The position numbers were made by a program, and so were the translations under genes. The notes beneath the pieces are model-generated. The model did not search any database. It was not told the origin of the DNA and worked only from the letters and a program-made list of their open reading frames with translations. A DNA stretch of 54,199 bases, taken from an uncultured virus (IMG/VR IMGVR_UViG_3300028569_000044). Its lineage: Duplodnaviria; Heunggongvirae; Uroviricota; Caudoviricetes. The DNA lies in IMG/VR virus record IMGVR_UViG_3300028569_000044, positions 1 through 54,199 of that record; one strand, 5' to 3'. Shown here one piece after another: positions 6,548 to 45,580 of this stretch. The stretch's first letter is position 1, and each line of letters starts with the position of its first letter.

Positions 6548-7390
6548 TTATAATAATATCCAACCTTTAACAACATTTCGTTTTCGATTGCATAATCCTG
6601 AAATGTTACTTTTTATATTAAATTCAGTTTTTAACTGATATTTTGTACAATATTTATGTAAATTTAAATTTTTATTGTAAAAGTGATAAATTGTAGGATC
6701 GTATGCTGGATTGTTAATACCTTTAGTTCTAATAGATAACTTTCTTGAAAATTCATCGCTCATTTTTCTACCTTTTAATTTTTTAGATATCAATTCTTTT
6801 GTCTCATTATTTCTAGTTTTTCCATATCCCCAATGTTTTTCACCTTTTCTTGAAAAACTCATTTTTGATTTAGCAATATTTGTATGTTTTCTTCCTCTAT
6901 TAGCGTTGCTTATTTTTTCTTTCATTTCTTCTGTTATTTTTAACTTAAAAGCATCGTATCTTTGATTATAATGACTATCAATTTTGTTTTCAAAATCGGA
7001 TTTTATCTTATCTAAATATATTTGTTCAAGTCTCAATAAATCATTTTTATTATCTACACATTCTACGGCGAGAAATTCAAACTCATGTTTTCCATATTTA
7101 TTCCAAGCATTTTGCAAATGATCGTTTTCATGTAAATTATTATTTAATTTATAACGATGTGTTATCCATCTTTTTCTAAAACAAACTGTACTTCCTATAT
7201 AATACTTACCACTTTGTTTATGTATTATTTTATATATCCCCCCTTTTTTTATAATATCTTTCAAGTGATTTTTCTCTACATCGTTTTTTATTTCGGTTGT
7301 AGTAACGCATTTGTCTGTCTTTCCGTGCTTGTAATTTTTCTGATTCGGTAATATACTTTCTCTTTCTTCCCATATAATAGTATCTTTCAT
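6548..7390 (-). CDS. GIY-YIG homing endonuclease with NUMOD3-like repeats
   Basis: GIYKI...YYIGS...RW..H...L....H.N..LQNAWNKYG; HT...K.KMS repeats; true start uncertain. Confidence 0.85.
   Translation of the reverse strand: MKDTIIWEERESILPNQKNYKHGKTDKCVTTTEIKNDVEKNHLKDIIKKGGIYKIIHKQSGKYYIGSTVCFRKRWITHRYKLNNNLHENDHLQNAWNKYGKHEFEFLAVECVDNKNDLLRLEQIYLDKIKSDFENKIDSHYNQRYDAFKLKITEEMKEKISNANRGRKHTNIAKSKMSFSRKGEKHWGYGKTRNNETKELISKKLKGRKMSDEFSRKLSIRTKGINNPAYDPTIYHFYNKNLNLHKYCTKYQLKTEFNIKSNISGLCNRKRNVVKGWILL
7230..7373 (-). CDS. 47 aa basic 'MGRK' leader ORF overlapping the GIY-YIG gene (not in ORF track)
   Basis: Hand translation MGRKRKYITESEKLQARKDRQMRYYNRNKKRCREKSLERYYKKRGDI*, similar to ORFs at 9808 and 13265. 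Confidence 0.65.
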   Translation of the reverse strand: MGRKRKYITESEKLQARKDRQMRYYNRNKKRCREKSLERYYKKRGDI

Positions 7391-9729: not shown

Positions 9730-9807
9730 AATTCCATAATACAACGAAAATGATTTAAGTCAAGATTTTTTGACGTTTTATTCTATGACAAACTATTTAT
9801 TATTGTT

Positions 9808-9963
9808 ATGGGGAGAAAAAAATTAAACAAAACTAAAGATGAATTACTTGAACAACAACGAAATCGTGCAAAAAGATATTATCAACGACACAAGCAAAGA
9901 CTTAACAAAAAATCAATGCAGAAATATTGGGAAAATAAGCGGAATTTACAAAATAGTAAATAA
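9808..9963 (+). CDS. 51 aa basic 'MGRK' leader ORF overlapping the GIY-YIG gene (not in ORF track)
   Basis: MGRKKLNKTKDELLEQQRNRAKRYYQRHKQRLNKKSMQKYWENKRNLQNSK*; ATG follows TATTTAT motif; differences from the 13265 copy are mostly synonymous in this frame. Confidence 0.75.
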   Translation: MGRKKLNKTKDELLEQQRNRAKRYYQRHKQRLNKKSMQKYWENKRNLQNSK

Positions 9964-10633
9964 AATTGATGGGAAATATTACGTTGGTAGTAGTAAACAT
10001 ATCTATAAAAGATGGAACGCACATGTGCGTTTATTGAATAACAATTGTCATCATAATGATTATTTACAAAATGTTTGGAAAAAGTATGGTAGTAATGCAT
10101 TTGGATTTACAATAGTTGAAGTAACAACTTATGATGAAACATTTTTGATTGAACAAAAGTATTTAGATATAGCAAAGTTGGAACAAGATAAATGTTATAA
10201 TTTAAACTTTGAATCTAAAGGTGGATGTGTAAGTAACTATACAAAAGAAAAAATGAGATTAATCAAAATTAATCATTATAAAAATCCAGAAAATAGAAAA
10301 AAGATAAGTTTAAAATTAAAAGGAATCCCTCTTTCTGAGGAAACAAAGAGAAAAATGAGTATATCAAGAACCGGAGAAAAACATTTTCGTTATGGTAAAA
10401 AACTTACACTTGAACATAAAAATAAATTGAGTGAATCTCATAAAGGCACTAAAAATCCGTGGAGTGATAGAAATATTTATATTTGTTATAATGAATTAAC
10501 AAAAATAAAAGTTACAGGCACACGATATGAACTAAGTAAATTAATGAATTTAAAGCAAGATACCACTAATTATTTAATAAGAAAACAAACTAAAAAAACC
10601 CGTTGTGGATGGGTATTAATTGATCATTCATAA
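9839..10633 (+). CDS. GIY-YIG homing endonuclease with NUMOD3-like repeats
   Basis: SGIYKI...YYVGSS...RW..H; LSEETKRKMS and EHKNKLSES repeats. Confidence 0.88.
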   Translation: MNYLNNNEIVQKDIINDTSKDLTKNQCRNIGKISGIYKIVNKIDGKYYVGSSKHIYKRWNAHVRLLNNNCHHNDYLQNVWKKYGSNAFGFTIVEVTTYDETFLIEQKYLDIAKLEQDKCYNLNFESKGGCVSNYTKEKMRLIKINHYKNPENRKKISLKLKGIPLSEETKRKMSISRTGEKHFRYGKKLTLEHKNKLSESHKGTKNPWSDRNIYICYNELTKIKVTGTRYELSKLMNLKQDTTNYLIRKQTKKTRCGWVLIDHS

Positions 10634-11469
10634 TCACGGATAGTGACCACATATGGGAATCTGGGCACTTCATCTACTGGTGTTAAATTAAAATATTTAA
10701 CTGTAGCTTGTTTACCGATATATTCATTTTTGTTAGAAAGTAATTCTTTTAAGTACGATCTTTGACCCTTAATATTACTATGGAACTCAATATCCTTATG
10801 ATTCTTGAATACCATATGTCCAGCCATACCACTCTTGTTACCTACCCCCTCAACAATGTCAAGAATCTTGAATTCACTATCTTGAAATTCTTTGCGCTTG
10901 AGTAGGTATTTGCTGCGTTTGTTTTCATATGGTCCGTCTGTACGAACCATCTGACCTTCGTAACCTTCGTCAATGTACTTTTCATACAACTCATTTAAAT
11001 GTGTAATCGTGTCCACAAGGTGAGTCGGAACACGACGAACCACATTGTTATTAACAAGATAAGTAGTAATGTCATCATTACGATCACTAAAAGTCTTCTG
11101 TACAATCCAGTCATATACCCAATATTGAATATTCTTTGCACTCTCTGTCAGATCTTCTGGTGTAGGTTTGGTCTTTTTTACCAAACTACAAATAGCATTA
11201 AAGTCATTGGCAAACTTATCAGCATACAACTCACCATCAAGAATTGCATTGGGGAACTTATCAAAGAAAGGTTCTAACGCTTTAAGAACGTGTGGAACTG
11301 AATGAAATTCTTTACCATTTCGGCTAAAAATTCCTTTCTTTGATACAATTGCTCTACAGTTGTGTACCAATACTCCATTTGCAAAAAAGTTGTGGTTGTC
11401 TTGAATTTCTAAATCATATTTGTCAAGACTCTCGATTTTTTTGATTGATTTAATCTTTACAGTTTTCAT
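10624..11469 (-). CDS. ATP-dependent DNA ligase C-terminal part preceded by a 37 aa C-intein
   Basis: YDLEIQDNHNFFANGVLVHN|C (intein blocks F/G) then CRA...SRNGK...LDGELY...YDW...EGQM...KRS..LLKRK...PRFP. Confidence 0.92.
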   Translation of the reverse strand: MKTVKIKSIKKIESLDKYDLEIQDNHNFFANGVLVHNCRAIVSKKGIFSRNGKEFHSVPHVLKALEPFFDKFPNAILDGELYADKFANDFNAICSLVKKTKPTPEDLTESAKNIQYWVYDWIVQKTFSDRNDDITTYLVNNNVVRRVPTHLVDTITHLNELYEKYIDEGYEGQMVRTDGPYENKRSKYLLKRKEFQDSEFKILDIVEGVGNKSGMAGHMVFKNHKDIEFHSNIKGQRSYLKELLSNKNEYIGKQATVKYFNLTPVDEVPRFPYVVTIRDYE

Positions 11470-12343
11470 CTATTATTCTTTTTATTTTATCAAACTTTTT
11501 TAAAATGTCAAGCTGCCATAAAACTATTACTTTATAGCCAAAATCTTCAATCTGTTTAGTTCTAGCGTTGTCAAATTCCCAAATTTCTTTAACAGTTTTA
11601 GTACCACCCCATTTATAAATTAAATCTGCTGACTTATATATTTTTGGATTTGCGTGCCATTTATCTCCATTTATCTCCAATACTATTTTTTTTGATTCGA
11701 TCAAAATGTCAACTTGTGGCGCATATATTCTATCTAAATAACCATTGTATTTTGTAAATTTATTTTTAACTTCACTTACATAATGTATATTATGTTCTTC
11801 TAAATATTTTTCAATTTTTTTATGAATTTTACTTCTACGCCCATAATTTCTCTCATACCAAGGTAAATTTACAGGAGTATATACTCCATATTTTTCATGC
11901 AATGTTTCTCTACTTTTATTTTTAACATTTTCACATTGAAAAACATTTGACACTCCATATTTTCTTTTTACAGTCCTATTTCTCTTTTTATAACATTTTG
12001 TATTTTTTGATAAAGCATTTTCAGTACCGTACTTTTTAATACAAGTATTTTTATATAAATTTCTTACATTAGGGTTATTTGCTTGTTCTGTTATTGAATT
12101 TGTTTTAATACCATATTCACGACAGAATGAAATAATAGAATCTGCACCTGTTATATATCCCTTTGGTTTTAAAATATTTAAACAGATATAATTAGAACTA
12201 TATTTTTTTTCAAGGACCAATTCAATTAGTAATTCTTTCGTTAAAAACGAACGAATATATAATCGTCTCTTAGGATTTTGAGAAGGCAAATTTAAAATTT
12301 TAATGTCTAATGTTTGATTATTAAATTTTTCTAATTCAGTCAT
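11450..12343 (-). CDS. Free-standing Vsr/DUF559-like endonuclease between the split-intein halves
   Basis: Three KYG repeats, then VDILI..KKIVLEINGDKWH...D..R......GYKVIVLWQ. Confidence 0.75.
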   Translation of the reverse strand: MTELEKFNNQTLDIKILNLPSQNPKRRLYIRSFLTKELLIELVLEKKYSSNYICLNILKPKGYITGADSIISFCREYGIKTNSITEQANNPNVRNLYKNTCIKKYGTENALSKNTKCYKKRNRTVKRKYGVSNVFQCENVKNKSRETLHEKYGVYTPVNLPWYERNYGRRSKIHKKIEKYLEEHNIHYVSEVKNKFTKYNGYLDRIYAPQVDILIESKKIVLEINGDKWHANPKIYKSADLIYKWGGTKTVKEIWEFDNARTKQIEDFGYKVIVLWQLDILKKFDKIKRIIDENCKD

Positions 12344-12392
12344 ATACTAATAAATAGTATATTCAAGATAAATTAGATGGATAATATTAAAT

Positions 12393-13061
12393 TTATTCTA
12401 ACATTAGAACATCGTTTTCTGTTAGTTCATCTACTCTTCGCCAACATTTAAGTCTCGGTAAATAAATTCTATGATTTCCGGTTACTTTAAGAGATTTACC
12501 ATTATTTAAATCAATTTGATGCCATTGGGTTGAAGATTCATTTATATCTACGCCGTTTTTAAATCTTCCAACAATATTTTTATATTCAAAATTATTGTTT
12601 ATTTCATTGAAAGTTTTAACTTTGCACTCAATGTTATTATTCACGATATCACTGATGTATAGTTCTCCAACATCTGTAGAAACAAGTGTATCTTGACTTA
12701 AACACCCATCCAACTTGGGTTGACTATAAATTGGATACTTAAGATCATCCTTATAATCGTCGTAGTTCTTAGCAAGCATTGGCTTGGTAAAGCTGATACC
12801 ATCAATGTCATTAATCTTTTCAAAGTAACCACTTTCTTTCTTTTTCTTCCAAGTGGCTTTGGCTTCTTTTACAGCTTGATCTTCATTGGAAGTAGCATTC
12901 TTTTTGCCGGTATTTTTACCTTCACAAAGTGTCCACTCAGTGATTTGAATAGCTCCATCAAGCTGACCATAATGGGTACGATACTTGTTGCCATCAACTT
13001 CGATGGTCCAAGTTTGAATAGCACCCGTATTTGTACGGGCGAATAACATAGGTAGTTTCAT
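12393..13061 (-). CDS. ATP-dependent DNA ligase N-terminal part followed by a 103 aa N-intein
   Basis: PMLA...SQPKLDG|CLSQDTLV (block A) ... LKVTGNHRI (block B TxxH). Confidence 0.92.
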   Translation of the reverse strand: MKLPMLFARTNTGAIQTWTIEVDGNKYRTHYGQLDGAIQITEWTLCEGKNTGKKNATSNEDQAVKEAKATWKKKKESGYFEKINDIDGISFTKPMLAKNYDDYKDDLKYPIYSQPKLDGCLSQDTLVSTDVGELYISDIVNNNIECKVKTFNEINNNFEYKNIVGRFKNGVDINESSTQWHQIDLNNGKSLKVTGNHRIYLPRLKCWRRVDELTENDVLMLE

Positions 13062-13071
13062 ATCTTATATA

Positions 13072-13100
13072 AGATTACCACGGTGCAATAAAAAAGTCAA
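13072..13100 (-). promoter_or_regulatory. Sigma70-like promoter of the ligase gene
   Basis: TTGACT-17nt-TAATCT with extended TG, about 10 nt upstream of ATG. Confidence 0.7.
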
Positions 13101-13101
13101 C

Positions 13102-13203
13102 TCAATTTTTCACAATTTCACCCTTAGCATCACTATACCACACTTCACCCACATTAAATTGCTTGACCACACTTTGACAACCACAACACGGCTTGCTGTT
13201 GGC
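13102..13203 (-). pseudogene. Orphan 3' end (33 codons) of the deaminase gene at 14186..14572
   Basis: Translates ANSKPCCGCQSVVKQFNVGEVWYSDAKGEIVKN* versus ANSKPCCGCQSVIKQFNVGEVWYSTDVGQVIKL*. Confidence 0.9.
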
Positions 13204-13264
13204 AAATGTTTTTATTTAAATATTTTTTGACGATTTATTCTATGACAAACTATTTATTAATGTT

Positions 13265-13426
13265 ATGGGAAGAAAAAAATTAAACAGAACAAAAGATGAA
13301 CTACTTGAACAACAAAGAAACCGAGCAAAAAAATATTATCAACGACATAAACAAAGACTCAATGAAAAGTCAATGCAAAAATATTGGGAAAATAAGCGGA
13401 ATATACAAAATAATAAACAAGATTGA
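13265..13426 (+). CDS. 53 aa basic 'MGRK' leader ORF overlapping the GIY-YIG gene (not in ORF track)
   Basis: MGRKKLNRTKDELLEQQRNRAKKYYQRHKQRLNEKSMQKYWENKRNIQNNKQD*. Confidence 0.75.
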   Translation: MGRKKLNRTKDELLEQQRNRAKKYYQRHKQRLNEKSMQKYWENKRNIQNNKQD

Positions 13427-14180
13427 CGGTAAATATTATGTCGGAAGTAGTAAAGATATTGTCACGCCTAATATAGGCAGATGGTACATGCACAAATACG
13501 AATTAAATAAAAAAACGCATACAAATGATTATCTCCAAAATGCTTGGAATAAATATGGAGAGGATAGTTTTGAATTTATAATTGTAGAAAAATGTAACCC
13601 CGATCAATTACTAATCGTAGAACAAAAGTATTTGGATGATACTAAAAAAGAACGAAATTTATCTTATAATTTAAGTTTTATTGCTGGTAACATTGAGATG
13701 ACGAATGATGTCAGACAAAAAATCAGTGCAAAATCTCGTGCACGATTAAAAGATAAAACAAAACATCCAAATTACGATGCAAAAATATATAAATTATATA
13801 ATAGAATTACAAACGATACATTTTTAGGTACCAGACAAGATTTTATTTTAAAATACAACGATAAGCATTTTAGTATTAACCATTTAATTTCTGGAAAATT
13901 TCATTCAACCAACGGATGGACATTTGATCCGAATTATGATCTTAAAGGTAATAGGGGTAAAAATTGGACGCAAGAAAGAATAAAATCTGTTAGTGAAAAA
14001 TTTACCGGTAAAAATAATCCATCGTATGATATAACCGTACATAATTTTATCCACGAAGACGGAAGAAAAGAAACCTGTACTAAATACGAATTGTATCACA
14101 AATATAATTTAGATAAAAGTGCTCTTGCCAGAGTTATAAACAGAAAACAAAAACATACAATGTGGTGGAAATTAGAATAA
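13296..14180 (+). CDS. GIY-YIG homing endonuclease
   Basis: SGIYKI...YYVGSS...RW..H...LQNAWNKYG; N-terminal half paralogous to 9839..10633. Confidence 0.88.
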   Translation: MNYLNNKETEQKNIINDINKDSMKSQCKNIGKISGIYKIINKIDGKYYVGSSKDIVTPNIGRWYMHKYELNKKTHTNDYLQNAWNKYGEDSFEFIIVEKCNPDQLLIVEQKYLDDTKKERNLSYNLSFIAGNIEMTNDVRQKISAKSRARLKDKTKHPNYDAKIYKLYNRITNDTFLGTRQDFILKYNDKHFSINHLISGKFHSTNGWTFDPNYDLKGNRGKNWTQERIKSVSEKFTGKNNPSYDITVHNFIHEDGRKETCTKYELYHKYNLDKSALARVINRKQKHTMWWKLE

Positions 14181-14185
14181 TATTA

Positions 14186-14572
14186 TTAAAGTTTAATTAC
14201 TTGGCCAACATCTGTGCTATACCAAACTTCTCCAACATTAAATTGTTTGATTACACTTTGACATCCACAACATGGCTTGCTATTTGCCATCTTATTATTT
14301 CTATTGAATCTAATCACCACCATTTTAAAATCTTTGAGATCCTCCTTGCCGCTCTTCATACACGCATTCAACTCAGCGTGCAAACCAACAAGCTGATGGT
14401 TTTTATAATCATATTCCAAAGTCTTGGGATGACTCTTACAGCTATTTGTACCAATATGAACAATCTTACCGCAACGAATAAGAAAAGCTATGTGACTGCA
14501 CCTATGTTCTAGGTTAAGCGGACACATAGCCTTTGCAATGTCAATAGTACGGTTTAAAATCTTGATGTTCAT
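14186..14572 (-). CDS. Cytidine/deoxycytidylate deaminase-fold protein
   Basis: HAE and PCCGC zinc motifs; probable start MNIKIL at 14572. Confidence 0.75.
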   Translation of the reverse strand: MNIKILNRTIDIAKAMCPLNLEHRCSHIAFLIRCGKIVHIGTNSCKSHPKTLEYDYKNHQLVGLHAELNACMKSGKEDLKDFKMVVIRFNRNNKMANSKPCCGCQSVIKQFNVGEVWYSTDVGQVIKL

Positions 14573-14582
14573 TACAAGATTC

Positions 14583-14611
14583 ATACTACCAAATACTTTA
14601 TAAAAAGTCAA
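14583..14611 (-). promoter_or_regulatory. Sigma70-like promoter
   Basis: TTGACT-17nt-TAGTAT with extended TG. Confidence 0.65.
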
Positions 14612-14615
14612 CAGC

Positions 14616-15347
14616 TTATTTTAAAGCCTCATAATTGTTGATGGGTATATGCTTTTTCGTAAGTAAATCCTGATCAAGTACATCAATAGCCTTCTTTTTA
14701 GACTTATAAAAAGCTCGGGTCAATACACGAAGTTCATAGTCTTCAATATTATAACCCATCTTGATATACTTAACCAATCGTTTCAACGTAACACTTGGAT
14801 AATTAATGCTCTTTGGATTGAACTTCAAATTGTTATTTTGAATCTGGTTCAATACATTTTCTTCAATAACTACATTGTTACCATCATAAGCAATACAACA
14901 TAAATTGATATCAAATGACCTAAATAAATCTTCAATGGTATCAAAATACTTGAAACTCACACACTGAATCTTCCACTCTGTATCCATATAAGACACTACC
15001 ATTGTATGATGCCACTCAGATACAATATAAGTCGTGACACTATACTTAGTAGTTGATAAAGCATTGCTATTTAATTCAAGCAAATACTTATCCAATTGTT
15101 CTTTGTTCTTAAAAAACACATCCACATCACTATCACTCAGTGGTAGTTTACGATAGGTTCTATGTAAAGCACCCCCAGCAATCCAAGGTCCATCTTCATT
15201 ACACTTGGGTAGAATCTCAATCAAATGTTCAAGTACACTACCAGTTGTCAAATGCTTTAGAAAAACATTTAACGGCAGTTTATTTGTTTTAATTGGCACC
15301 ACATATTCAGCTTGTGGCAGTTCTACGAATTTAACATCAGTTGACAT
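14616..15347 (-). CDS. Nucleotidyltransferase-like protein (poly(A) polymerase/CCA head-like)
   Basis: WIAGGAL...DVDVFF...FDINLCCIA...R..KY...GY. Confidence 0.7.
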   Translation of the reverse strand: MSTDVKFVELPQAEYVVPIKTNKLPLNVFLKHLTTGSVLEHLIEILPKCNEDGPWIAGGALHRTYRKLPLSDSDVDVFFKNKEQLDKYLLELNSNALSTTKYSVTTYIVSEWHHTMVVSYMDTEWKIQCVSFKYFDTIEDLFRSFDINLCCIAYDGNNVVIEENVLNQIQNNNLKFNPKSINYPSVTLKRLVKYIKMGYNIEDYELRVLTRAFYKSKKKAIDVLDQDLLTKKHIPINNYEALK

Positions 15348-22576: not shown

Positions 22577-22984
22577 TCAACCTTGATTGTCAATGTATTT
22601 TTTGATTGTGTCAGGCGATGCTTCTCCGATAGAGCAAACGAAATAACCATCTGACCAGAGCACATTTTCCTTCCAAAAATGAGATTTAAGAAATGTTTTG
22701 TGTTTCTTATATATTCTATTTGTTGATATTGATTTGAAATTATTAACCATTTCTAAAACCGATTTAGTTGGAGGATAATCTATCATTAGATGTATATGAT
22801 CTTCGTCTGTTTGCATTGCTTTAATAATAATATTTCTATCATTGGCAATGTCAAACATAATTTGTTTTAAGTCATCGGCCAAAAAACCATTTAGTATCTT
22901 TTTCCTATATTTTACGCTAAACACAAGATGACATTGAAGCAAATGTTTAGAGTGCGAAGTTGTATGGAAATTATTCTTTTTCAA
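22577..22984 (-). CDS. tnpA: IS200-type Y1 HUH transposase
   Basis: HLVF.VKYR, DHIHL (HUH), LWSDGYF, IKKYIDNQ catalytic Tyr. Confidence 0.95.
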   Translation of the reverse strand: MKKNNFHTTSHSKHLLQCHLVFSVKYRKKILNGFLADDLKQIMFDIANDRNIIIKAMQTDEDHIHLMIDYPPTKSVLEMVNNFKSISTNRIYKKHKTFLKSHFWKENVLWSDGYFVCSIGEASPDTIKKYIDNQG

Positions 22985-23048
22985 AATATCTAAAAATTTA
23001 TAAAGTTTTTTTCACTTTTTGAAAATCTAGTGTATATATATTATAGAA

Positions 23049-24212
23049 GTGATAACATATAATACCAAACTTTTGAGCGATTGTCAATCTGATTTAGACG
23101 ATTTGAAGTCTATGATGATTGATCATCAAAAGATTTTTAATATTGCATCCCCTCTTCAATTTGTTGAAAAAAAGAATTCTATCGTTGTTTTACATTCAAA
23201 AGTTTACCACAATGTTCGTAAACAATTCCCCTATGTAAACTCTCAAGTCGTTATAAAAGCTGAACAAGAATGTTTAGCCTCCTATAGAAGCGTTAAATCA
23301 AATAAACACAAATTAAAAAAACCAATTGAGAAAAAGAACTTGTCTATTCGCTTGGATAAGAGATTGTATTCGTTTCCTACGGATAGATCAATAAAAATTA
23401 CAACATCAAATGGAAAAAAGAATTTCAAATTTCAATTGTATCCAAAACTTGTAGAATTATTAAATAAATACAAATATGTTGATCCATTGATTTATGTTGA
23501 AAATGGAGAAATATACATTTCGCTACCGTTTGATAATAAATCTAAAGAATCATTAAAACAAAAATTAGCTTTGGGAGTTGATATCGGAATTCGTCGTAGT
23601 GTCGCCCTTAGTGATGGACGAATCATAGTTGATAGAAAATTTAATGGAGACAAACGCAAACTTCGTCACTTAAAAGATACTTTGAAATCTAAAGGCACTA
23701 AAAGTGCTAGAAGACATCTTCACAAACTTCGTCATAAAGAAGCAAACAAAAATAGAAATCAATCTCATTTAATTGCCAATGAGGTTTTAAGAACCGAAGC
23801 AGACACTATTGTTCTAGAAAATCTCAAAGGAATTAAAGTAAAAAAACATAAATATCAAAATAAGCGTTCCATTAGCCAAGTGCCAATGTTTGAACTTCGT
23901 AGAATAATATCTTACAAGGCAGAGAATCAAGGTAAAACCGTGACTCTTGTTAGCCCTTCTTATACTTCTCAAAGAGATTCCGTAACTGGAAGAATTGAAG
24001 GAGAAAGAAGAGGTTGTAGATTTTACTCTAAAAACGATCTTATTTATGATGCGGATGTTAACGCTGCAATCAATATAGCCAAAACATCCAAACTTCCCGT
24101 ATCACAAACTAACCGTTTGACTTATGGGCAGGTTGTCGTCAACCAACCAATCGTATGTAAGCCCTCTGTTGCACAAACAGCGGCATTACAAGCCCCTATG
24201 GCTTTAGCCTAG
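23049..24212 (+). CDS. tnpB: RNA-guided nuclease TnpB
   Basis: RuvC-I LGVDIG, RuvC-II IVLENL, YTSQ, RuvC-III DADVNAAINI. Confidence 0.92.
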   Translation: MITYNTKLLSDCQSDLDDLKSMMIDHQKIFNIASPLQFVEKKNSIVVLHSKVYHNVRKQFPYVNSQVVIKAEQECLASYRSVKSNKHKLKKPIEKKNLSIRLDKRLYSFPTDRSIKITTSNGKKNFKFQLYPKLVELLNKYKYVDPLIYVENGEIYISLPFDNKSKESLKQKLALGVDIGIRRSVALSDGRIIVDRKFNGDKRKLRHLKDTLKSKGTKSARRHLHKLRHKEANKNRNQSHLIANEVLRTEADTIVLENLKGIKVKKHKYQNKRSISQVPMFELRRIISYKAENQGKTVTLVSPSYTSQRDSVTGRIEGERRGCRFYSKNDLIYDADVNAAINIAKTSKLPVSQTNRLTYGQVVVNQPIVCKPSVAQTAALQAPMALA

Positions 24213-26194: not shown

Positions 26195-26710
26195 TTAAAT
26201 GTCAAACACTTTTCCGTCAAAATATGCTTTACATCCCAAAACTCGGTCAATCGCAAAGATTTTCACATCAGCTTCACTAAACATAGTAAATGTAGCATTA
26301 TCGTGTCCCTTCCATTGTTCACGTTGTGCCTCATTACACAAATCATTAAATTGCCGGTGTATATAAACATCTTTGATGCCACTTTGGATGATTCCCCTAG
26401 CACAGTCTGCACAAGGCAAAGCATTGGTATAAAGAATTGCGCCATCGGTGTTTATACCGTACCTAGCAGCTGCGTAAATCGCATTGCGTTCACCGTGTTC
26501 GTACCATTTGTACTTTTCTGGTCGTTCGTTACGAATTTCATTTTTGTCTGCTACTCCAATAGGAATGCCATTGAAGCCGGTAGATATGATTCGTTTGTCT
26601 TTTACAATGAGAGCACCAATCTTTGTCTTGGGATCTTTGGATTTACTTGCAACCCAATAGACTCCTTGTAAAAACCATTCGTTCCAATCTGGTGGTGTAT
26701 AATCTTTCAT
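26195..26710 (-). CDS. dCMP deaminase
   Basis: SKDP.TKIGA, STGFNG, HGERNAI, PCADCA. Confidence 0.9.
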   Translation of the reverse strand: MKDYTPPDWNEWFLQGVYWVASKSKDPKTKIGALIVKDKRIISTGFNGIPIGVADKNEIRNERPEKYKWYEHGERNAIYAAARYGINTDGAILYTNALPCADCARGIIQSGIKDVYIHRQFNDLCNEAQREQWKGHDNATFTMFSEADVKIFAIDRVLGCKAYFDGKVFDI

Positions 26711-26774: not shown

Positions 26775-27614
26775 ATGACATACAAAATAAAAAATTATCA
26801 TTATTATAATAGATATATTAAATTAATTATATATTATAGAATACGTCCAATTGATACTTCAAAATATTTCGAAGAACATCACATTCTCCCACGTTCTATG
26901 GGAGGATTAAATACTTCCGATAATTTAATTAATTTAACAGCTAGAGCTCATTTTTTATCCCATTACTTATTATGGAAATCTTATAGAAACAAGAAAACTG
27001 CATATGCATTTAAGTGTATGTCTAATTTTGTTAAAACAAAAAATGGAAAAAAAGTCAGATATTTAAATAGTCGATTATTTGAAAAATTTGTTATTTCTTC
27101 AAAAAAATATTTTATAGGCAAAAATCATCCTTTATATGGCAAACTCAAATCTGTAGAATCAATTCAAAAACAAAAATTAAAAATGTTAGGTAAAAAACAA
27201 TCGTTGGAACATATAAATAAAAGAAAAAAAAGTTTAAATTCGTATTATGAAAATAATCCGAATATTCCACACGGATTTTCAGGCAGAAGACATTCAGTTG
27301 AAACTAAAATTAGAATGAGTCAAATTCATTCCGGTAAGAAAAAAACTAAACAACATGTAGAAAAAATGAAATTAAGGCCACAAAATAATTTAAAGATCGA
27401 ATGTGTACACTGTCATAAAATAGGAGAATATAAAAATATGAAAAGATGGCATTTTGATTTTTGTAAGGAAAATCCAAACAAAAAACAAAAAAACTCGGAG
27501 TTAATTTCTTGCGATAAGTGTGGTATTGTTAGTAAAAAAACTCCTAATTTTTATAGATATCATCTGAATAATTGTAATTCAATCCCAAAGATGGCAATAA
27601 TATCTAGCGAATAA
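26775..27614 (+). CDS. HNH homing endonuclease with NUMOD3-like repeats
   Basis: EEHHILPRSMGG.N...NLINLTARAHFLSHYLL; HSVETKIRMS; C-terminal CxxC. Confidence 0.85.
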   Translation: MTYKIKNYHYYNRYIKLIIYYRIRPIDTSKYFEEHHILPRSMGGLNTSDNLINLTARAHFLSHYLLWKSYRNKKTAYAFKCMSNFVKTKNGKKVRYLNSRLFEKFVISSKKYFIGKNHPLYGKLKSVESIQKQKLKMLGKKQSLEHINKRKKSLNSYYENNPNIPHGFSGRRHSVETKIRMSQIHSGKKKTKQHVEKMKLRPQNNLKIECVHCHKIGEYKNMKRWHFDFCKENPNKKQKNSELISCDKCGIVSKKTPNFYRYHLNNCNSIPKMAIISSE

Positions 27615-31740: not shown

Positions 31741-32814
31741 ATGGATAACAATTTTTTAAATATAGATAATGCTGAAACCGCTTACACACTTGGTCTTTTA
31801 TGGTCAGATGGATATCTTTGTAAACATTCAAATGGAAAATATTATTCTGTTGGAATTAGAATTTGTGAAAAAGATATGAAAAATGTTAAATACATATTAT
31901 GTTCTTCAAATTTCAAAAATTGGAAATTTTACGCATATAAAAATTCCAATGAAAACTACAAAAAATTATTAGAATCACAAATACATAACATAAATCTGTG
32001 TAATTTTCTTTTAAAAATTGGATTTGACAAAAAATCTTATATTAGTCACGAGTGTGTATTGCAACATATTCCTGAAAATTTGCATAGATTTTATTTTAGG
32101 GGATTGATTGATGGAGATGGATGTTTTTATATAAGAAAAAATAACATCGGTCAGTCTTTTTCAATAGCATCATCATATAACCAAGATTGGTCATATTTTC
32201 AAAAATATATTTTTGAAAAATTAAAAATTAATACTAAAATTGTACAATCTAAAAATAAAAAAGGTAGCGGTTCTTGTTTAATTATTAATAATAAAATTGA
32301 TATTGTTAATTTTGGAAATTTTGTATATGAAAATATGGATACTGATAAAATCGGATTTTTAAGAAAATATAATAAGTTTTTATCTATCAAAAAATCATAC
32401 GAAAATGCTCCTAAATGTAGCAGATATAATAATTTTTACAAAGGTATATATTTAAAAAACATTAAAACAAATGAGATTGTTGAAATTGTTAAAATGAAAG
32501 ACTTTTGTATAAAGTATAGATTAAATCCTTCCGGTATAAAAAAAGTTTTGTCATCTGAATATATCCAATGGAAAGGATGGATTTTGCCTACCACGGATAT
32601 AGATCAAATAAAAAAAATAAAATATGAAAATTTTTCAAGTAAACTTTCAAAAACATATGAATTTATATATAAAGGCGAAAAATTAATTATTAATAATTTA
32701 AATCGTTATTGTAGAGAACATAATTTGTCTTATTCAAGTTTTAAACTTTTAATACGAGGCGTTTACAACCAATATAAAAATTATATATTTATTAAAAAAT
32801 ATAACAACATATAA
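31741..32814 (+). CDS. LAGLIDADG homing endonuclease (two-motif, free-standing)
   Basis: AYTLGLLWSDG and YFRGLIDGDG. Confidence 0.85.
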   Translation: MDNNFLNIDNAETAYTLGLLWSDGYLCKHSNGKYYSVGIRICEKDMKNVKYILCSSNFKNWKFYAYKNSNENYKKLLESQIHNINLCNFLLKIGFDKKSYISHECVLQHIPENLHRFYFRGLIDGDGCFYIRKNNIGQSFSIASSYNQDWSYFQKYIFEKLKINTKIVQSKNKKGSGSCLIINNKIDIVNFGNFVYENMDTDKIGFLRKYNKFLSIKKSYENAPKCSRYNNFYKGIYLKNIKTNEIVEIVKMKDFCIKYRLNPSGIKKVLSSEYIQWKGWILPTTDIDQIKKIKYENFSSKLSKTYEFIYKGEKLIINNLNRYCREHNLSYSSFKLLIRGVYNQYKNYIFIKKYNNI

Positions 32815-34231: not shown

Positions 34232-34720
34232 TTACTTACTATACTTGATAACTTTGTGCCCGTCAAATTCTTTTACTGTTTCTTGATTATTAAATGTATC
34301 TTCAAAACTAGACATAAATACATCACCATCATAATTGCCATTTACATGCGTAACATAAAATTCCTTAATATAAGGCAGTAACTTAAGATAAGTTTTAGCA
34401 CCACCAGCAACAATTAAATAGTCTTTTCTAAATTGACTATATGATTCAAGATCTGTCATTGTAATCAGTTGTCCAGTCATAGAATTATTGTTTACTAGAT
34501 ATTGATTTGGATTTGCAGCCATTATTTTGTCTTCTTTGACTAGTACAAGACATTCTCTATTTTTTAGAAATGGTAGTGTATCAAATGTATTTTTACCCAC
34601 AATAAGTGTTCCACCCATTGTAAATTCTTTGAACCACTTGAAGTCGTTTGGAACATACCACGGAATTTTATTTTCTTTTCCGATACATCGGTTTTCAGAC
34701 ATTGCCATTATTGATTTCAT
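34232..34720 (-). CDS. folA: Dihydrofolate reductase
   Basis: AMSENRCIG....IPW..P.DFKWFK..T....IVGKNTF...P.LKNR...VAGGA..Y...GDVF; adjacent to thyA. Confidence 0.92.
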   Translation of the reverse strand: MKSIMAMSENRCIGKENKIPWYVPNDFKWFKEFTMGGTLIVGKNTFDTLPFLKNRECLVLVKEDKIMAANPNQYLVNNNSMTGQLITMTDLESYSQFRKDYLIVAGGAKTYLKLLPYIKEFYVTHVNGNYDGDVFMSSFEDTFNNQETVKEFDGHKVIKYSK

Positions 34721-34791
34721 ATAACTATATTATCAGATAAAATTAAATTGTAAAGATGATTTTGAATTGTTTAATTACTATTTATACATAT

Positions 34792-35499
34792 ATGAATGAT
34801 AAATTAAAACAAAAAGAATACTTTCAATCTTACTATCAAAAAAATAAAGATAAATTAAAAAAAAGAAGAAACGAATTGTATTATGAAAAAGCAGAACATA
34901 AGAAAAGAAATTTTAGAAAAAATATGACTTCTGAAGAGTTAGAATTGTTAAAAACCAGAAAGTGCCCAGATTGTAACAATATACTCAAATACAACAATAT
35001 AAGTAATAAACAACGAGCGGATAAAATAAATGCTAAATGTTATACGTGTCAAGGTGAAATGTTATCATTAAAAAGAAGAGGAGTTCGTCTTACAAAAGAA
35101 GAACGAGATAAACTAAAAATACAAGAACAAATTAAAAATGTTATTATGTGGAAGGAGAAATTAAGACTGATAAGAATAAAACAGATAAAAAATAATGGAT
35201 CGGTTCATTTTCCAAATTTTAATAAAAACGCATGTTTGTATTTTGATAAACTAAATGAAGAAAAAGGTTGGAAATTACAACATGCATTAAACGGTGGGGA
35301 AATTCAAATTGGAGGATATTTTTTAGATGCATATGATGTACATAATAATATAGTCATAGAATATGACGAATTAAAACATAAAATTGATAAACGAAGAAAT
35401 AAAAAAGATAGGGAAAAAGAAAAATACCTTATAGATAAATTAAAATGTAAATTTTACAGATATTTAGAATATGAAAATAAGTTAGTTGAAATATTATAA
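34792..35499 (+). CDS. Free-standing endonuclease with C-terminal PD-(D/E)xK/Vsr-like domain
   Basis: CPDC...CYTC; HALNGGE..IGGYFLDAYD...NIVIEYDE..H.........D.E; probable start MNDKLK after TATTTAT. Confidence 0.7.
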   Translation: MNDKLKQKEYFQSYYQKNKDKLKKRRNELYYEKAEHKKRNFRKNMTSEELELLKTRKCPDCNNILKYNNISNKQRADKINAKCYTCQGEMLSLKRRGVRLTKEERDKLKIQEQIKNVIMWKEKLRLIRIKQIKNNGSVHFPNFNKNACLYFDKLNEEKGWKLQHALNGGEIQIGGYFLDAYDVHNNIVIEYDELKHKIDKRRNKKDREKEKYLIDKLKCKFYRYLEYENKLVEIL

Positions 35500-35553
35500 T
35501 CCACCATTTTTGCCTATAACCCTATTTTGTGCCATTGCGAGTATTGCTTTCAT
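35494..35553 (-). pseudogene. Orphan 5' end (19 codons) of DHFR
   Basis: MKAILAMAQNRVIGKNGGL* is a DHFR N-terminus; ATGA overlap with the APS kinase stop. Confidence 0.85.
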
Positions 35554-41587: not shown

Positions 41588-41964
41588 AGTAGTTTTAGAT
41601 GTTTAGTGACTGGATCAATTTTAGAACTATAATCTGGTCCAATGGCTAGACAAGTGAAAGTAGGTTTATCAAATCCAGTGGTTTCTTCAATATATTTGAC
41701 TGATAGACCCAGTATAACAGCTTGATATCCAATGTCAAGTAGTTCTTCTTCACTATTTACAGCCAAACAAACCTTAAAGAAAGTTCCTTTAATCCATTGT
41801 TCTTCACGATGATTGAATGGAATAACATCGTCGGGATATGCTCTGACTAGATTGGTTAAGAAAGCAATACTTGCATGAGCACCTTGAGCAACCATTTGTC
41901 CTTTGCTCAATTGCAAATCCTTACGCATTATTATGGTTTGCTTTATTCTGTCGTTTTCTTTCAT
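41584..41964 (-). other. pth2: Peptidyl-tRNA hydrolase Pth2 family
   Basis: KQ.II.RKDL..SKG...AQ.AHAS...KVCL.V.SEEEL...T.LAIGP....ID..T.HLKLL. Confidence 0.88.
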
Positions 41965-42802
41965 ATATTCCTTTTTGTTTTAAAACTCTAATAATCAAAT
42001 ATTTAGATATTCCGTGTTTTTTGGCCATTTCATTTGTAACTTTTTTAGTAGATTGATAATCAAATATTAATGATGTTATCATATTTTCATCAATGTGTTT
42101 ATAACATGGATTTTTACTTCCGATCATATGATTTTTCATTTTTTCACGACCTTGATCTGTAATGCCAATCTTTTTTCCATTTATATCTAAATTTTTTTTG
42201 TGTGATTCAGACATTTTTGTTCTAACCACTTCCAATCCAGATTTACTATTTTTAGATATTTTTTCTCTAATTTCAGATGCTTTTTTCAGACCATATTTTT
42301 CATTATATGATCGTTGTTTATCTTTTATTATTTGTTTGGCTTTTTCATCACCAAATCTCATTTCATAAGTTTTTCCTTTTAATTCATCAGATAGTCTTTT
42401 TTTATTTTCTTCGTTTTGATTATAATCAATTAAATTTTTACATACATTACTAGAAATTGCAAATTTTCTAATTTTTTCTTTTGTAACATCTGAATGTTTC
42501 CATCCAAGAATACCACGACCACCCTCCGTTAAATTATAACCAAACTTTGAAAAAGTATTATACTTTTTAATACACTCGATTTCTTTTACATTCAATTCTT
42601 CAAATGAAGAAGCTTTATATATAACTTCCCATGAAAAATTTTGTTTTCCATACTTTTTGATTGATCTATGAAAATAATATGTGCTTCCTCTATATGCTGC
42701 ATTCAAATGTGCAGCTTTACGCTTTTTAAGTGTTTGAATTGTTTGACCAACATATTTCATTTGGTTCACCAAATTAGTTACAAGATAAATGATCATATAC
42801 AA
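41921..42802 (-). CDS. GIY-YIG homing endonuclease
   Basis: IIYLVTN..N.MKYVGQT...R...H...F..SIKKYG...GYNLTEGG; HSDVTKEKI. Confidence 0.85.
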   Translation of the reverse strand: MYMIIYLVTNLVNQMKYVGQTIQTLKKRKAAHLNAAYRGSTYYFHRSIKKYGKQNFSWEVIYKASSFEELNVKEIECIKKYNTFSKFGYNLTEGGRGILGWKHSDVTKEKIRKFAISSNVCKNLIDYNQNEENKKRLSDELKGKTYEMRFGDEKAKQIIKDKQRSYNEKYGLKKASEIREKISKNSKSGLEVVRTKMSESHKKNLDINGKKIGITDQGREKMKNHMIGSKNPCYKHIDENMITSLIFDYQSTKKVTNEMAKKHGISKYLIIRVLKQKGIYERKRQNKANHNNA

Positions 42803-44111: not shown

Positions 44112-44140
44112 AGTATACCAGATAGATTTCTGAAAGTCAA
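44112..44140 (-). promoter_or_regulatory. Sigma70-like promoter
   Basis: TTGACT-17nt-TATACT with extended TG. Confidence 0.7.
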
Positions 44141-44277
44141 ATATTTTTCTTGTCAAATTCATTGTATAATTGATCGTCTAATTGATTGTATAATTGACGG
44201 TTTAATTGACTGTGTAATTGATCGTATAATTGATTCTGTAATTGAATTTTATGTTTTATTGGTTTTGTGAAATTCAT
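44137..44277 (-). CDS. QLxx-repeat micro-ORF 8 (46 aa, not in ORF track)
   Basis: MNFTKPIKHKIQLQNQLYDQLHSQLNRQLYNQLDDQLYNEFDKKNI*. Confidence 0.65.
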   Translation of the reverse strand: MNFTKPIKHKIQLQNQLYDQLHSQLNRQLYNQLDDQLYNEFDKKNI

Positions 44278-44482
44278 TGTGTAATTGACTGTTTAATTGA
44301 TTGAATAATTGACGGTCTAATTGAGTGTATAATTGATCGGATAATTGATTGTATAATTGAGTGTTTGATTGACTGTTTAATTGATTGTTTAATTGAGTCC
44401 ATAATTGTTTGTCTAATTGAGTCTGTAATTGATGTGATAATTGAGTGAATAATTTAGTTTTTATTGGTTTTGTGAAGTTCAT
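44249..44482 (-). CDS. QLxx-repeat micro-ORF 7
   Basis: MNFTKPIK + QLxx repeats. Confidence 0.7.
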   Translation of the reverse strand: MNFTKPIKTKLFTQLSHQLQTQLDKQLWTQLNNQLNSQSNTQLYNQLSDQLYTQLDRQLFNQLNSQLHNEFHKTNKT

Positions 44483-44675
44483 TTTCTAATTGAGTGTTTA
44501 ATTGCCAGCCTAATTGATCGGATAATTGATGGGATAATTGATGGGATAATTGATTGAATAATTTAGTGGATAATTTAGTGCCTAATTGATCCCATAATTG
44601 ACGGTGTAATTGCCAGTCTAATTGAGTGTCTAATTGAGTGTGTAATTTATTTCGTATTGAATTGTTGAATTTCAT
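44454..44675 (-). CDS. QLxx-repeat micro-ORF 6
   Basis: MKFNNSIR + QLxx repeats. Confidence 0.7.
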   Translation of the reverse strand: MKFNNSIRNKLHTQLDTQLDWQLHRQLWDQLGTKLSTKLFNQLSHQLSHQLSDQLGWQLNTQLENELHKTNKN

Positions 44676-44856
44676 TGTATAATTGATGGGATAATTGACG
44701 GGTTGTTTGAGTGTGTAATCGATTGTATAATTGCCAGTCTAATTGAGTGTCTAATTGAGTGTGTAATTTATTTCGTATTGAATTGTTGAATTCATCCCAT
44801 AATTGACGGTTTAATTGATCTCTTAATTTATTTGTTATTGGTTTTGTGAAGTTCAT
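44647..44856 (-). CDS. QLxx-repeat micro-ORF 5 (contains an in-frame copy of the ORF 6 N-terminus)
   Basis: Internal FNNSIRNKLHTQLDTQLDWQL. Confidence 0.7.
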   Translation of the reverse strand: MNFTKPITNKLRDQLNRQLWDEFNNSIRNKLHTQLDTQLDWQLYNRLHTQTTRQLSHQLYNEIQQFNTK

Positions 44857-45568: not shown

Positions 45569-45580
45569 TGTGTAATAAAT

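What the first reader, a model, noticed from the sequence alone, without database searches (positions are those of the whole stretch)
13102..14287. Deaminase 3' end present twice around a GIY-YIG gene, differing almost only at synonymous sites
Over the first 24 codons the orphan (from 13203) and functional end (from 14287) differ by 10 synonymous changes and one V/I change by my count; the duplication starts just before the PCxxC zinc motif. The orphan's TGA abuts the -35 box of the ligase promoter, as native gene ends do here. This is the clearest case of terminus replacement and locates the likely target site near the conserved motif.
Basis: seen in the sequence. Interest (0 to 1): 0.7.

Follow-up and report, generated by a model that had tools for sequence, protein, structure and literature searches.

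The report
Homing nuclease replaced a deaminase gene end
A selfish DNA-cutting-enzyme gene in an uncultured lake phage brought its own copy of the last third of a small deaminase gene and left the phage's original gene end stranded behind it, a scar type long known from fungal mitochondria.

Summary
On the minus strand, 14287-14186 (the end of a 128-aa HAE/PCxxC deaminase) and 13203-13102 (no start codon, in-frame stop upstream) are two copies of one gene end. They flank a plus-strand GIY-YIG gene (13296-14180). Over 24 codons they differ by 10 synonymous changes and one V/I change.

Relatives show what happened. The orphan is the resident phage's own gene end: 97 of 98 bases match L013, a relative without the nuclease gene, whereas the working deaminase gene is only 83% identical to L013's. 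Three nuclease-bearing genomes (window, L019, L108) share one nuclease-linked end, 0-6 differences in 99 bases. Each has a different orphan, 2-5 differences from a different nuclease-free allele. Independent lake metagenome contigs carry the nuclease-bearing form, nuclease-free forms and a chimera, so this is not an assembly chimera.

Best reading: a free-standing homing endonuclease cassette spread by break repair, with about 50 bases of extra co-conversion upstream. The mostly synonymous pattern is not special: 41% of background allele pairs are at least as diverged. The cleavage site is inferred, not shown.

The closest known design is the mobile endonuclease ORF gene hybrids of fungal mitochondria. 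This scan has noted similar cases on other DNA.

The parts
14186..14572 (-). Working deaminase gene. 128 aa from the ATG at 14572; an upstream TTG at 14611 would give 141 aa. It carries the HAE and PCCGC zinc motifs and is a hybrid of resident 5' part and nuclease-linked 3' part.
   Evidence: ORF list. Pfam PF00383 E 5.5e-5, 23.4 bits, below the 25-bit cut-off. PHROG dCMP deaminase E 1e-7. Mosaic alignment.
14186..14332 (-). Nuclease-linked tract of the deaminase gene (gene nt ~241-387). It is shared with the other nuclease-bearing genomes and, in part, with the nuclease-free chimeras L056 and L003. The left limit is approximate.
   Evidence: WIN against L019: 139/147 identical from nt 241, but 88/108 before it. 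L056 is identical to WIN for nt 246-368. L108 switches from L063-like to this type between nt ~226 and 234.
14186..14287 (-). Functional copy of the duplicated gene end (ANSKPCCGCQSVIKQFNVGEVWYSTDVGQVIKL*).
13296..14180 (+). Free-standing GIY-YIG homing endonuclease gene, 294 aa. It is convergent with the deaminase gene; 5 bases separate the two stop codons.
   Evidence: Pfam PF01541 32.2 bits, cut-off 22.6. PHROG homing endonuclease E 6.7e-21. Matches the I-TevI catalytic domain, 1mk0_A, E 4e-8. Intact in WIN, L019 and L108; dN/dS 0.23 between WIN and L019.
13222..13430 (+). Conserved 5' module of the nuclease gene. It holds a promoter-like TTGACG (13227-13232), 18 bases, then TATTTA (13251-13256), and a small overlapping ORF (13265-13426). 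The module is shared with GIY-YIG genes at other loci.
   Evidence: 88-96% nucleotide identity to window 9774-9972 and to L005, L101, L105, L109, L019 and L108. The hexamers are my own reading of A5; the promoter scan did not list them.
13204..13221 (.). A+T-rich junction between the nuclease cassette and the orphan. The junction lies at the same place in L019 and L108; the window differs by a 1-base indel.
   Evidence: Alignment A2. Translations LKF|LNNSKP in L019 and L108.
13102..13203 (-). Orphan: the resident deaminase 3' end (ANSKPCCGCQSVVKQFNVGEVWYSDAKGEIVKN*). It has no start codon and ends in TGA.
   Evidence: 97/98 identical to L013-L015. 3/99 differences from L013, L014, L015, L053, L086 and L087. 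26/99 differences from the functional copy.
13062..13101 (-). Native intergenic stretch with the promoter-like TTGACT (13100-13095), 17 bases, then TAATCT, ahead of the ligase ATG at 13061.
   Evidence: Sequence. TGAGTTGACTTTT is unique in the window. The same stop+GTTGAC layout occurs in L003 and L016 and in 11 of 79 copies. The consensus scan did not list it.
12393..13061 (-). First part of the ATP-dependent DNA ligase gene, ending in an intein N-half. This is the downstream neighbour and anchors the native locus.

Best explanation
A free-standing GIY-YIG homing endonuclease gene (HEG) sits between the deaminase and ligase genes as a cassette of about 1.1 kb. The cassette consists of a foreign deaminase 3' portion (from gene nt ~230-246 to the stop), the HEG on the opposite strand with its own 5' module, and a short A+T-rich junction. 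Behind it the resident deaminase end, from gene nt ~283-286 onward, survives as an untranslated orphan. The deaminase stays intact because the cassette supplies the PCxxC zinc ligands and the C-terminus.

SHOWN. The duplication exists. The orphan is the resident type. One HEG-linked end occurs on three backgrounds that carry three different orphans. The junction is the same in all three. HEG-bearing, HEG-free and chimeric alleles coexist in lake metagenomes. The HEG is intact and under purifying selection.

INFERRED.
1. The junction arose once, by one-sided break repair: homologous on the deaminase side, illegitimate on the far side. This repair route is described for T4 intron homing.
2. The cassette then spread by homing. 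The enzyme cuts nuclease-free alleles around gene nt ~230-300, just upstream of or at the PCxxC codons. The left end is repaired from the donor's deaminase copy and the right end from the donor's orphan, with almost no conversion to the right. Each recipient therefore keeps its own orphan.
3. In a carrier, neither copy has the full site. The working copy differs in the variable codons upstream (IRFNRNNKMA against LRVDRTGKLN) and at synonymous sites. The orphan lacks the upstream half.
4. The two direct repeats allow precise loss of the HEG. They also allow conversion patches without the HEG. Either route gives chimeras such as L056 and L003.
For: Duplication.

HEG identity: Pfam GIY-YIG 32.2 bits; I-TevI catalytic domain E 4e-8.

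Backbone comparison with L013: upstream gene 95.0% (883 bp), deaminase 83.3% (407 bp), orphan 99.0% (98 bp), ligase start 93.2% (395 bp).

Rarity: only 3 genomes hold a GIY-YIG gene next to the deaminase, and all 3 have an orphan. Pattern scans gave 21 viral and 64 metagenome stretches; only L047 (the same contig as L019) and L108 have two copies. In tblastn of 66 loci, only L108 qualified.

Distances over 99 bases: HEG-linked ends differ by 0-6 from each other and by 22-29 from the orphans. Orphans differ by 15-21 from each other. Each orphan lies 2-5 from a different nuclease-free allele group.

L108 against L063: 230/235 identical for nt 1-235, 113/155 after that, and the orphan span is 106/117, of which the first 12 bases are junction.

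The junction is the same in WIN, L019 and L108.

Chimeras: L056 is identical to WIN for nt 246-368 and then has a native tail. L003 is identical for nt 268-344 and then has a native tail, TGA, GTTGAC and the ligase gene.

Independent runs: a 1273-base contig in X3 spans 13043-14312. Contigs in X7 and X8 span 13241-14408 and 13286-14405. Joints 13201->14309, 14321 and 14352 are nuclease-free resident alleles. Joint 13122->14209 is a chimera of functional core and orphan tail.

HEG selection: dN/dS 0.23 (WIN against L019); intact in all three.

One-sided illegitimate break repair and co-conversion in T4 homing: review PMC2988022, passages and section 17.
Against: No cleavage, binding or homing was tested. 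The host is unknown and the phage is uncultured.

The donor lineage of the HEG-linked tract was not found. The best nuclease-free match outside L056 and L003 is only 96/117, to L018.

The window's own deaminase 5' part is not cleanly L013-like: 205/235, against 223/235 to L003. This locus is therefore mosaic by more than one event.

L056- and L003-type alleles could be ancestors rather than products.

The HEG itself is only 85% identical in nucleotides between WIN and L019 (739/870), while the linked gene end is 94% identical. The cassette is therefore not young as a whole.

Many loci are the same contigs held in two collections, so locus counts overstate independence: there are 41 distinct alleles among 61 full-length copies.

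The HEG N-terminus as annotated may not be the true reading frame.
Confidence: 0.8

Rival explanations
1. Assembly chimera: two co-occurring strains were joined at the conserved PCxxC stretch, which created a false duplication.
For: The window is a metagenome-derived virus record, and several deaminase alleles coexist in the same lakes.
Against: The same layout (deaminase, GIY-YIG gene, orphan) is present in L019 and L108 from other assemblies. A 1273-base contig from an unrelated study also shows it, spanning 13043-14312 across both junctions (X3 record 1).
Confidence: 0.02
2. Internal tandem duplication of the gene end within one lineage, followed by divergence. Under this reading the nuclease gene is an unrelated later insertion.
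For: Direct repeats flanking an insert can arise by replication slippage or unequal crossing-over.
Against: The copies differ at 26 of 99 bases, with synonymous sites near saturation (pS 0.78). Yet the orphan is 3/99 from living nuclease-free alleles, and the other copy is 6/99 from the ends linked to the nuclease gene in other backgrounds. Three different orphans sit behind one linked end.
Confidence: 0.03
3. Ordinary homologous recombination among co-infecting mosaic phages moved the block. The GIY-YIG gene is a passenger, possibly inactive or aimed at another site, and the orphan is a chance illegitimate join.
For: The whole neighbourhood is mosaic. Blocks of about 2 kb are present or absent on both sides of the deaminase in relatives. 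Cleavage has not been shown. Free-standing T4 endonucleases often cut hundreds of bases from their gene (PMC2988022).
Against: The linked tract ends within about 50 bases of the junction on three backgrounds. Short patches of the linked type, centred on the same ~100 bases, occur in nuclease-free genomes (L056, L003). The nuclease gene is intact with dN/dS 0.23. This is the pattern expected of co-conversion around a break.
Confidence: 0.12

Closest known systems
Mobile endonuclease ORF (mORF) gene hybrids of fungal mitochondria: Allomyces macrogynus atp6; Glomus sp. atp6, atp9, cox2, nad3 (Beaudet et al. 2013, PMC3630166, passages read; the Allomyces paper is known to me only through that text)
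   Same: An endonuclease ORF is inserted in the 3' part of a gene and carries a foreign C-terminal coding piece that keeps the gene whole. The native C-terminus is left about 1 kb downstream. The native piece groups with close relatives and the inserted piece groups elsewhere. Differences are largely synonymous. One of the Glomus cases (atp9) is a GIY-YIG enzyme.
   Different: The present case is in a phage, not an organelle. The nuclease gene lies on the opposite strand with its own promoter-like module, whereas the mitochondrial ORFs are in phase with or downstream of the host gene on the same strand. The same linked end is seen here on three backgrounds, alongside nuclease-free and chimeric alleles in the same habitats.
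Intronless homing by free-standing GIY-YIG (Seg) endonucleases of T4-like phages, with co-conversion and marker exclusion (review PMC2988022)
   Same: A free-standing GIY-YIG gene lies between phage genes and is present or absent among relatives. Flanking sequence of the donor type travels with it. It sits in the nucleotide-metabolism gene neighbourhood.
   Different: That review contains no occurrence of words beginning 'duplicat'. It describes in-gene insertions (mobE in nrdA, mobA in gene 60) as splitting the gene rather than carrying a spare end. Seg enzymes are described as cutting hundreds of bases from their gene, whereas the conversion tracts here suggest a cut within about 60 bases of the junction, more like an intron-encoded enzyme.
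I-TevI (intron-encoded GIY-YIG endonuclease of T4)
   Same: The N-terminal GIY-YIG catalytic domain matches (E 4e-8 to 1mk0_A). The build is modular: a shared catalytic part with differing C-terminal parts among paralogues. I-TevI cuts 23-25 bases upstream of its insertion site (PMC2988022), a geometry that would fit the ~50-base replaced-but-not-duplicated stretch.
   Different: There is no intron here. No match to a C-terminal DNA-binding domain was found for this protein. The cut site is unknown.

Membership tests
GIY-YIG homing endonucleases (I-TevI/Seg type) | GIY-YIG catalytic domain | tested here: met
   Pfam PF01541 32.2 bits against a cut-off of 22.6, residues 35-118. I-TevI catalytic domain E 4e-8. 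GIY (35-37) and YYVG (47-50) are invariant in 4 paralogues.
GIY-YIG homing endonucleases (I-TevI/Seg type) | Separate sequence-reading DNA-binding domain in the C-terminal half | tested here: inconclusive
   Pfam gives no hit beyond residue 118 for this protein. Paralogues at 9839-10633 and 6548-7390 have NUMOD3. The C-terminal halves differ between paralogues at different loci.
GIY-YIG homing endonucleases (I-TevI/Seg type) | Presence/absence polymorphism at one locus among close relatives | tested here: met
   3 nuclease-bearing genomes against dozens without it. Both forms appear as contigs in the same runs.
GIY-YIG homing endonucleases (I-TevI/Seg type) | Donor-type flanking sequence travels with the gene (co-conversion) | tested here: met
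   One linked gene end occurs on three backgrounds. The tract limits lie at nt ~226-246 on the left and at the junction on the right.
GIY-YIG homing endonucleases (I-TevI/Seg type) | Site-specific cleavage of the nuclease-free allele and resistance of the carrier allele | not testable with these tools
   This needs purified enzyme and DNA substrates.
mORF gene hybrids (fungal mitochondria) | Inserted foreign C-terminal piece in frame with the gene core, with the native C-terminus left downstream of the endonuclease ORF | tested here: met
mORF gene hybrids (fungal mitochondria) | The native piece groups with close relatives and the inserted piece groups elsewhere | tested here: met
   Nearest-neighbour distances and backbone identities.
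mORF gene hybrids (fungal mitochondria) | Endonuclease ORF on the same strand as the host gene, often in phase with it, in an organelle genome | tested here: not met
   The nuclease gene is on the opposite strand, convergent with the deaminase gene. The record is a phage-like virus contig.
CDA-fold zinc deaminases (dCMP/cytidine deaminase family) | HAE and PCxxC zinc-binding motifs and a match to the family profile | tested here: inconclusive
   LHAEL and PCCGC are present in all full-length alleles. Pfam PF00383 gives 23.4 bits, just under the 25-bit cut-off. PHROG dCMP deaminase E 1e-7. A canonical dCMP deaminase lies elsewhere in the window (26195-26710, 70 bits), so the substrate of this small one is open.

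The most novel reading that the evidence does not exclude
The orphan is not just a decaying scar. It is a working part of the selfish element, kept because it serves the nuclease gene in three ways:
1. It is the right-hand homology arm that lets the cassette home into any resident allele.
2. It is a decoy or operator. It holds the conserved half of the enzyme's recognition sequence about 20 bases upstream of the nuclease gene's own promoter-like module. Binding without cutting could then throttle the enzyme's expression, as I-TevI does at its operator.
3. It is the repeat that permits clean exit.

This would make 'spare gene end plus retained orphan' a designed architecture of phage homing cassettes rather than an accident.
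Probability: 0.12. Interest if true: 0.65.

Novelty: new member of a known kind. Interest (0 to 1): 0.45.

Why it matters
This case shows, with population data, how a homing endonuclease can enter the coding part of a phage gene without harming it. It carries a replacement gene end, so neither an intron nor an intein is needed.

The orphan gives a dated, base-resolved footprint of the invasion. The footprint predicts where the enzyme cuts and predicts the sequence of sensitive and resistant alleles, so the specificity of an uncultured phage's nuclease becomes directly testable.

The case also shows gain, patch conversion and probable loss of one cassette among co-occurring lake phages. That is the life cycle proposed for homing genes, and it is one source of fine-scale mosaicism in phage genes.

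Annotators should expect such orphans next to nuclease genes and should not call them pseudogenes of unknown origin.

Tried and rejected
1. Special recoding. I tested whether the synonymous differences mark deliberate recoding of the target. Rejected: pS 0.78 is matched or exceeded by 41% of 780 background pairs.

2. Annotated phage relatives. blastn against 50,697 phage records gave only 7 records, with 3-6% coverage inside the nuclease gene.

3. More carriers through the nuclease protein.
- Single protein in viral contigs: none.
- Four-sequence alignment in viral contigs: only the L019 contig at 79%, plus distant paralogues.
- Two-sequence alignment in metagenome contigs: none.
- A degenerate DNA pattern worked instead.

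4. Donor of the linked tract. It was not found. The paralogous deaminase copies downstream of the ligase (L077, L090, L091) and L018 are only 75-82% identical over nt 241-357.

5. Promoter and terminator scan. 14 promoter-like sites were found against 10.5 expected, so it is not informative. It did not list the ligase or nuclease promoter-like boxes that I read by eye.

6. The small overlapping ORF. No Pfam or PHROG family and no longer protein carrying it.

7. Literature. Five full-text searches and passages of PMC10448857 and PMC2988022 gave no description of a spare gene end plus orphan next to a phage homing endonuclease. This is not an exhaustive search. Subscription journals and supplements were not seen.

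8. Earlier notes of this scan. There were none for this genome.

9. Depths were not used as allele frequencies, because they are per-contig figures.

Full report
WHAT IS THERE

The window is a 54,199-base virus record of about 31% G+C, estimated 15% complete. It holds tail-fibre-like, nucleotide-metabolism and many mobile-element genes.

On the minus strand the local gene row is as follows:
- A 243-aa nucleotidyltransferase-like gene (14616-15347).
- A small deaminase (14186-14572, 128 aa, LHAEL and PCCGC motifs). Pfam PF00383 gives 23.4 bits, just under the cut-off. PHROG dCMP deaminase gives E 1e-7.
- A plus-strand GIY-YIG gene (13296-14180, 294 aa). Pfam gives 32.2 bits and the I-TevI catalytic domain matches at E 4e-8.
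- A 102-base orphan (13203-13102).
- The ATP-dependent ligase gene, starting at 13061.

The orphan and the deaminase 3' end (14287-14186) align without gaps, at 84% over 85 bases and E 2.8e-20.

In the 24 codons ANSKPCCGCQSV(I/V)KQFNVGEVWYS there are 10 synonymous differences and one I/V difference. Of the last 9 sense codons, 7 are non-synonymous.

The orphan has no start codon and an in-frame stop lies 5 codons upstream. Its TGA is followed by G and TTGACT. The same stop+GTTGAC layout is found at 11 of 79 copies of this gene end in relatives. One of these is L003, where deaminase and ligase are direct neighbours.

IS THE SYNONYMOUS PATTERN SPECIAL? NO.

pS in the 24 codons is 0.78 and pN is 0.017. 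Among 780 pairs of 40 distinct nuclease-free alleles the median core pS is 0.72, and 41% reach 0.78 or more. The pattern reflects deep allelic divergence over a strongly conserved peptide. It does not show recoding.

RELATIVES

Three searches gave loci from the same phage group:
- A protein-seeded scan of viral contigs gave 20 loci.
- A degenerate DNA pattern gave 21 viral stretches.
- The same pattern gave 64 metagenome stretches.

Several of these are the same contigs held in two collections. There are 41 distinct alleles among 61 full-length copies.

Only three genomes have a GIY-YIG gene beside the deaminase: the window, L019 (the same contig as L023 and L047) and L108. All three have an orphan.

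The other loci fall into three layouts:
- Deaminase directly next to ligase (for example L003 and L017).
- About 2 kb of other genes in between (for example L004, L005 and L013).
- A deletion remnant only (L022, L094).

THE ORPHAN IS THE RESIDENT END AND THE WORKING END TRAVELS WITH THE NUCLEASE GENE

The window compares with L013 as follows:

| Segment | Identity | Length |
|---|---|---|
| Upstream gene | 95.0% | 883 bp |
| Working deaminase | 83.3% | 407 bp |
| Orphan | 99.0% | 98 bp |
| Ligase start | 93.2% | 395 bp |

Over 99 bases:
- The three nuclease-linked ends differ by 0-6 from each other and by 22-29 from the orphans.
- The three orphans differ by 15-21 from each other.
- The window's orphan lies 3 from L013, L014, L015, L053, L086 and L087.
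- L019's orphan lies 5 from L112.
- L108's orphan lies 2 from L063, L075 and L109.

The tail STD(V/I)GQVIKL* occurs only in the three carriers.

L108 is the cleanest case. Against L063 it is 230/235 identical for gene nt 1-235 and 113/155 after that, and its orphan is again L063-like (106/117, of which the first 12 bases are junction).

The junction between cassette and orphan lies at the same place in all three genomes, with a 1-base indel in the window.

EXTENT OF THE REPLACED TRACT

The linked type starts at gene nt ~226-246, about 50 bases upstream of where the orphan begins (nt 283-286). Those bases were replaced without a leftover. They encode the variable peptide IRFNRNNKMA, against LRVDRTGKLN in resident alleles.

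NUCLEASE-FREE CHIMERAS

L056 is identical to the window for nt 246-368 and unrelated upstream (pS 0.73). It then has a native-type tail.

L003 is identical for nt 268-344. It then has a native tail, TGA, GTTGAC and the ligase gene.

These alleles are what two processes would produce: break repair that copies a patch without the nuclease gene, or recombination between the two direct repeats that deletes the nuclease gene. I cannot tell these two apart, and I cannot exclude that such alleles are ancestral.

NOT AN ASSEMBLY ARTEFACT

Twenty runs from 11 studies hold half or more of the sampled words of 12950-14650. I laid four runs from four studies, with these results:
- A 1273-base contig in X3 covers 13043-14312 across both junctions, with 25 other letters and 5 gaps.
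- Contigs in X7 and X8 cover 13241-14408 and 13286-14405.
- The same runs contain joints 13201->14309, 14321 and 14352. The letters between the sides read as the resident VDRTGKLN codons, so these are nuclease-free alleles.
- A joint 13122->14209 is a chimera of functional core and orphan tail.

All of these are contigs, so I did not use their depths as frequencies.

THE NUCLEASE GENE

It is intact in all three carriers. Between the window and L019, dN/dS is 0.23 and nucleotide identity is 739/870. L019 and L108 are 851/870 identical.

Its first ~200 bases, including a promoter-like TTGACG-18-TATTTA read by eye, are 88-96% identical to GIY-YIG genes at other loci. The C-terminal halves differ. 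This fits modular enzymes with a shared catalytic part and different DNA-reading parts.

MECHANISM

Shown: the anatomy, the linkage, the polymorphism and the tract limits.

Inferred:
- The junction was made once, by one-sided break repair with an illegitimate join. The T4 review describes this for intron homing with homology on one side only (PMC2988022).
- The cassette then homed into other resident alleles. The cut falls around nt 230-300, and the right-hand crossover lies at the very start of the orphan.
- The I-TevI geometry (binding at the insertion site, cutting 23-25 bases upstream; PMC2988022) would fit the ~50-base gap between tract start and orphan start. This is an analogy only.

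COMPARISON WITH KNOWN SYSTEMS

The design is that of the mobile-ORF gene hybrids of fungal mitochondria: a foreign C-terminal piece, an endonuclease ORF and a native C-terminus downstream. It was described for Glomus atp6, atp9, cox2 and nad3, and before that for Allomyces atp6 (PMC3630166, passages). I have not read the Allomyces paper itself.

Differences here are the phage setting, the opposite-strand nuclease gene with its own 5' module, and the population evidence.

In the phage literature I could search, in-gene insertions are described as gene splits. I found no mention of spare ends or orphans. That search is limited.

Earlier notes of this scan report similar layouts in other phage and giant-virus DNA. 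They agree with this reading but are not independent evidence.

VERDICT

Terminus replacement by a homing-endonuclease cassette is well supported. The target site is inferred. This is a new member of a known kind, of moderate interest.

Noticed in passing
window 13265-13426 (+), overlapping the start of the GIY-YIG ORF: A 51-53-codon ORF (MGRKKLNRTK...) overlaps the annotated nuclease N-terminus in the other frame and is kept open in 7 copies at different loci. Over 117 bases, summed over 21 pairs, pN/pS is 0.10 in the small-ORF frame and 0.72 in the GIY-YIG frame. Selection therefore acts on the small ORF. It may be a frameshift fusion or an overprinted regulator. No family match and no longer protein carrying it were found.
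   Followed up: partly
window 10624-13061 (-): The ligase gene is interrupted after KLDG by intein halves (CLSQ... and ...VHNC). A separate 297-aa DUF7487/DUF559 endonuclease-like ORF (11450-12343) lies between them. Most relatives have an uninterrupted ligase, but L019 shares the interruption. It looks like a split intein with a free-standing nuclease gene inside.
   Followed up: partly
window 35509-35553 and 34676-34720 (-), flanking the + strand ORF 34756-35499: This is a second case, at a gene start. An orphan DHFR start (MKAILAMAQNRVIGK..., soon stopped) lies upstream of an opposite-strand ORF with no family match. The working DHFR start (MKSIMAMSENRCIGK...) lies downstream of it.
   Followed up: partly
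L022 3990-4075 and L094 1880-1960: The deaminase is reduced to a 29-codon remnant (MNSK joined to SVVKQF...). Codons ~5-107 are deleted at a 3-base microhomology, which removes the whole presumed target region.
   Followed up: partly
L064 330-345: A one-base deletion in the RTGKL codons just upstream of where the orphans begin frameshifts this deaminase. It could be an imprecise repair scar or a sequencing error.
   Followed up: no
window 9839-10633 (+), 6548-7390 (-), 41921-42802 (-), 26775-27614 (+), 31741-32814 (+): There are three further GIY-YIG genes (two of them with NUMOD3), one gene matching NUMOD3 only (26775-27614) and a LAGLIDADG gene. The copy at 9839-10633 sits convergent behind the ligase, as in L005, L101, L105 and L109. 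I found no orphan of the ligase end.
   Followed up: partly
window 22577-24212 and 48763-49932: An IS200-type TnpA with a TnpB (Cas12f-like TNB domain) lies in the first stretch. A second TnpB, 77% identical in protein, lies 25 kb away.
   Followed up: no
window 26195-26710 (-) and 50044-50748 (-): A canonical dCMP deaminase (Pfam 70 bits) exists besides the small one, so the small deaminase's substrate is open. An Acb3-like CBASS inhibitor gene is also present.
   Followed up: no
L090 2013-2393 and 6298-6681; L082, L091, L104: Some relatives carry a second deaminase paralogue about 2.8 kb downstream of the ligase, with an ...VVQL*/VVRL* tail. L090 has both copies.
   Followed up: partly
window 44140-45580: A stretch of many diverged tandem repeats at the protein level (units of roughly 60 aa) appeared in the six-frame self-comparison.
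   Followed up: no
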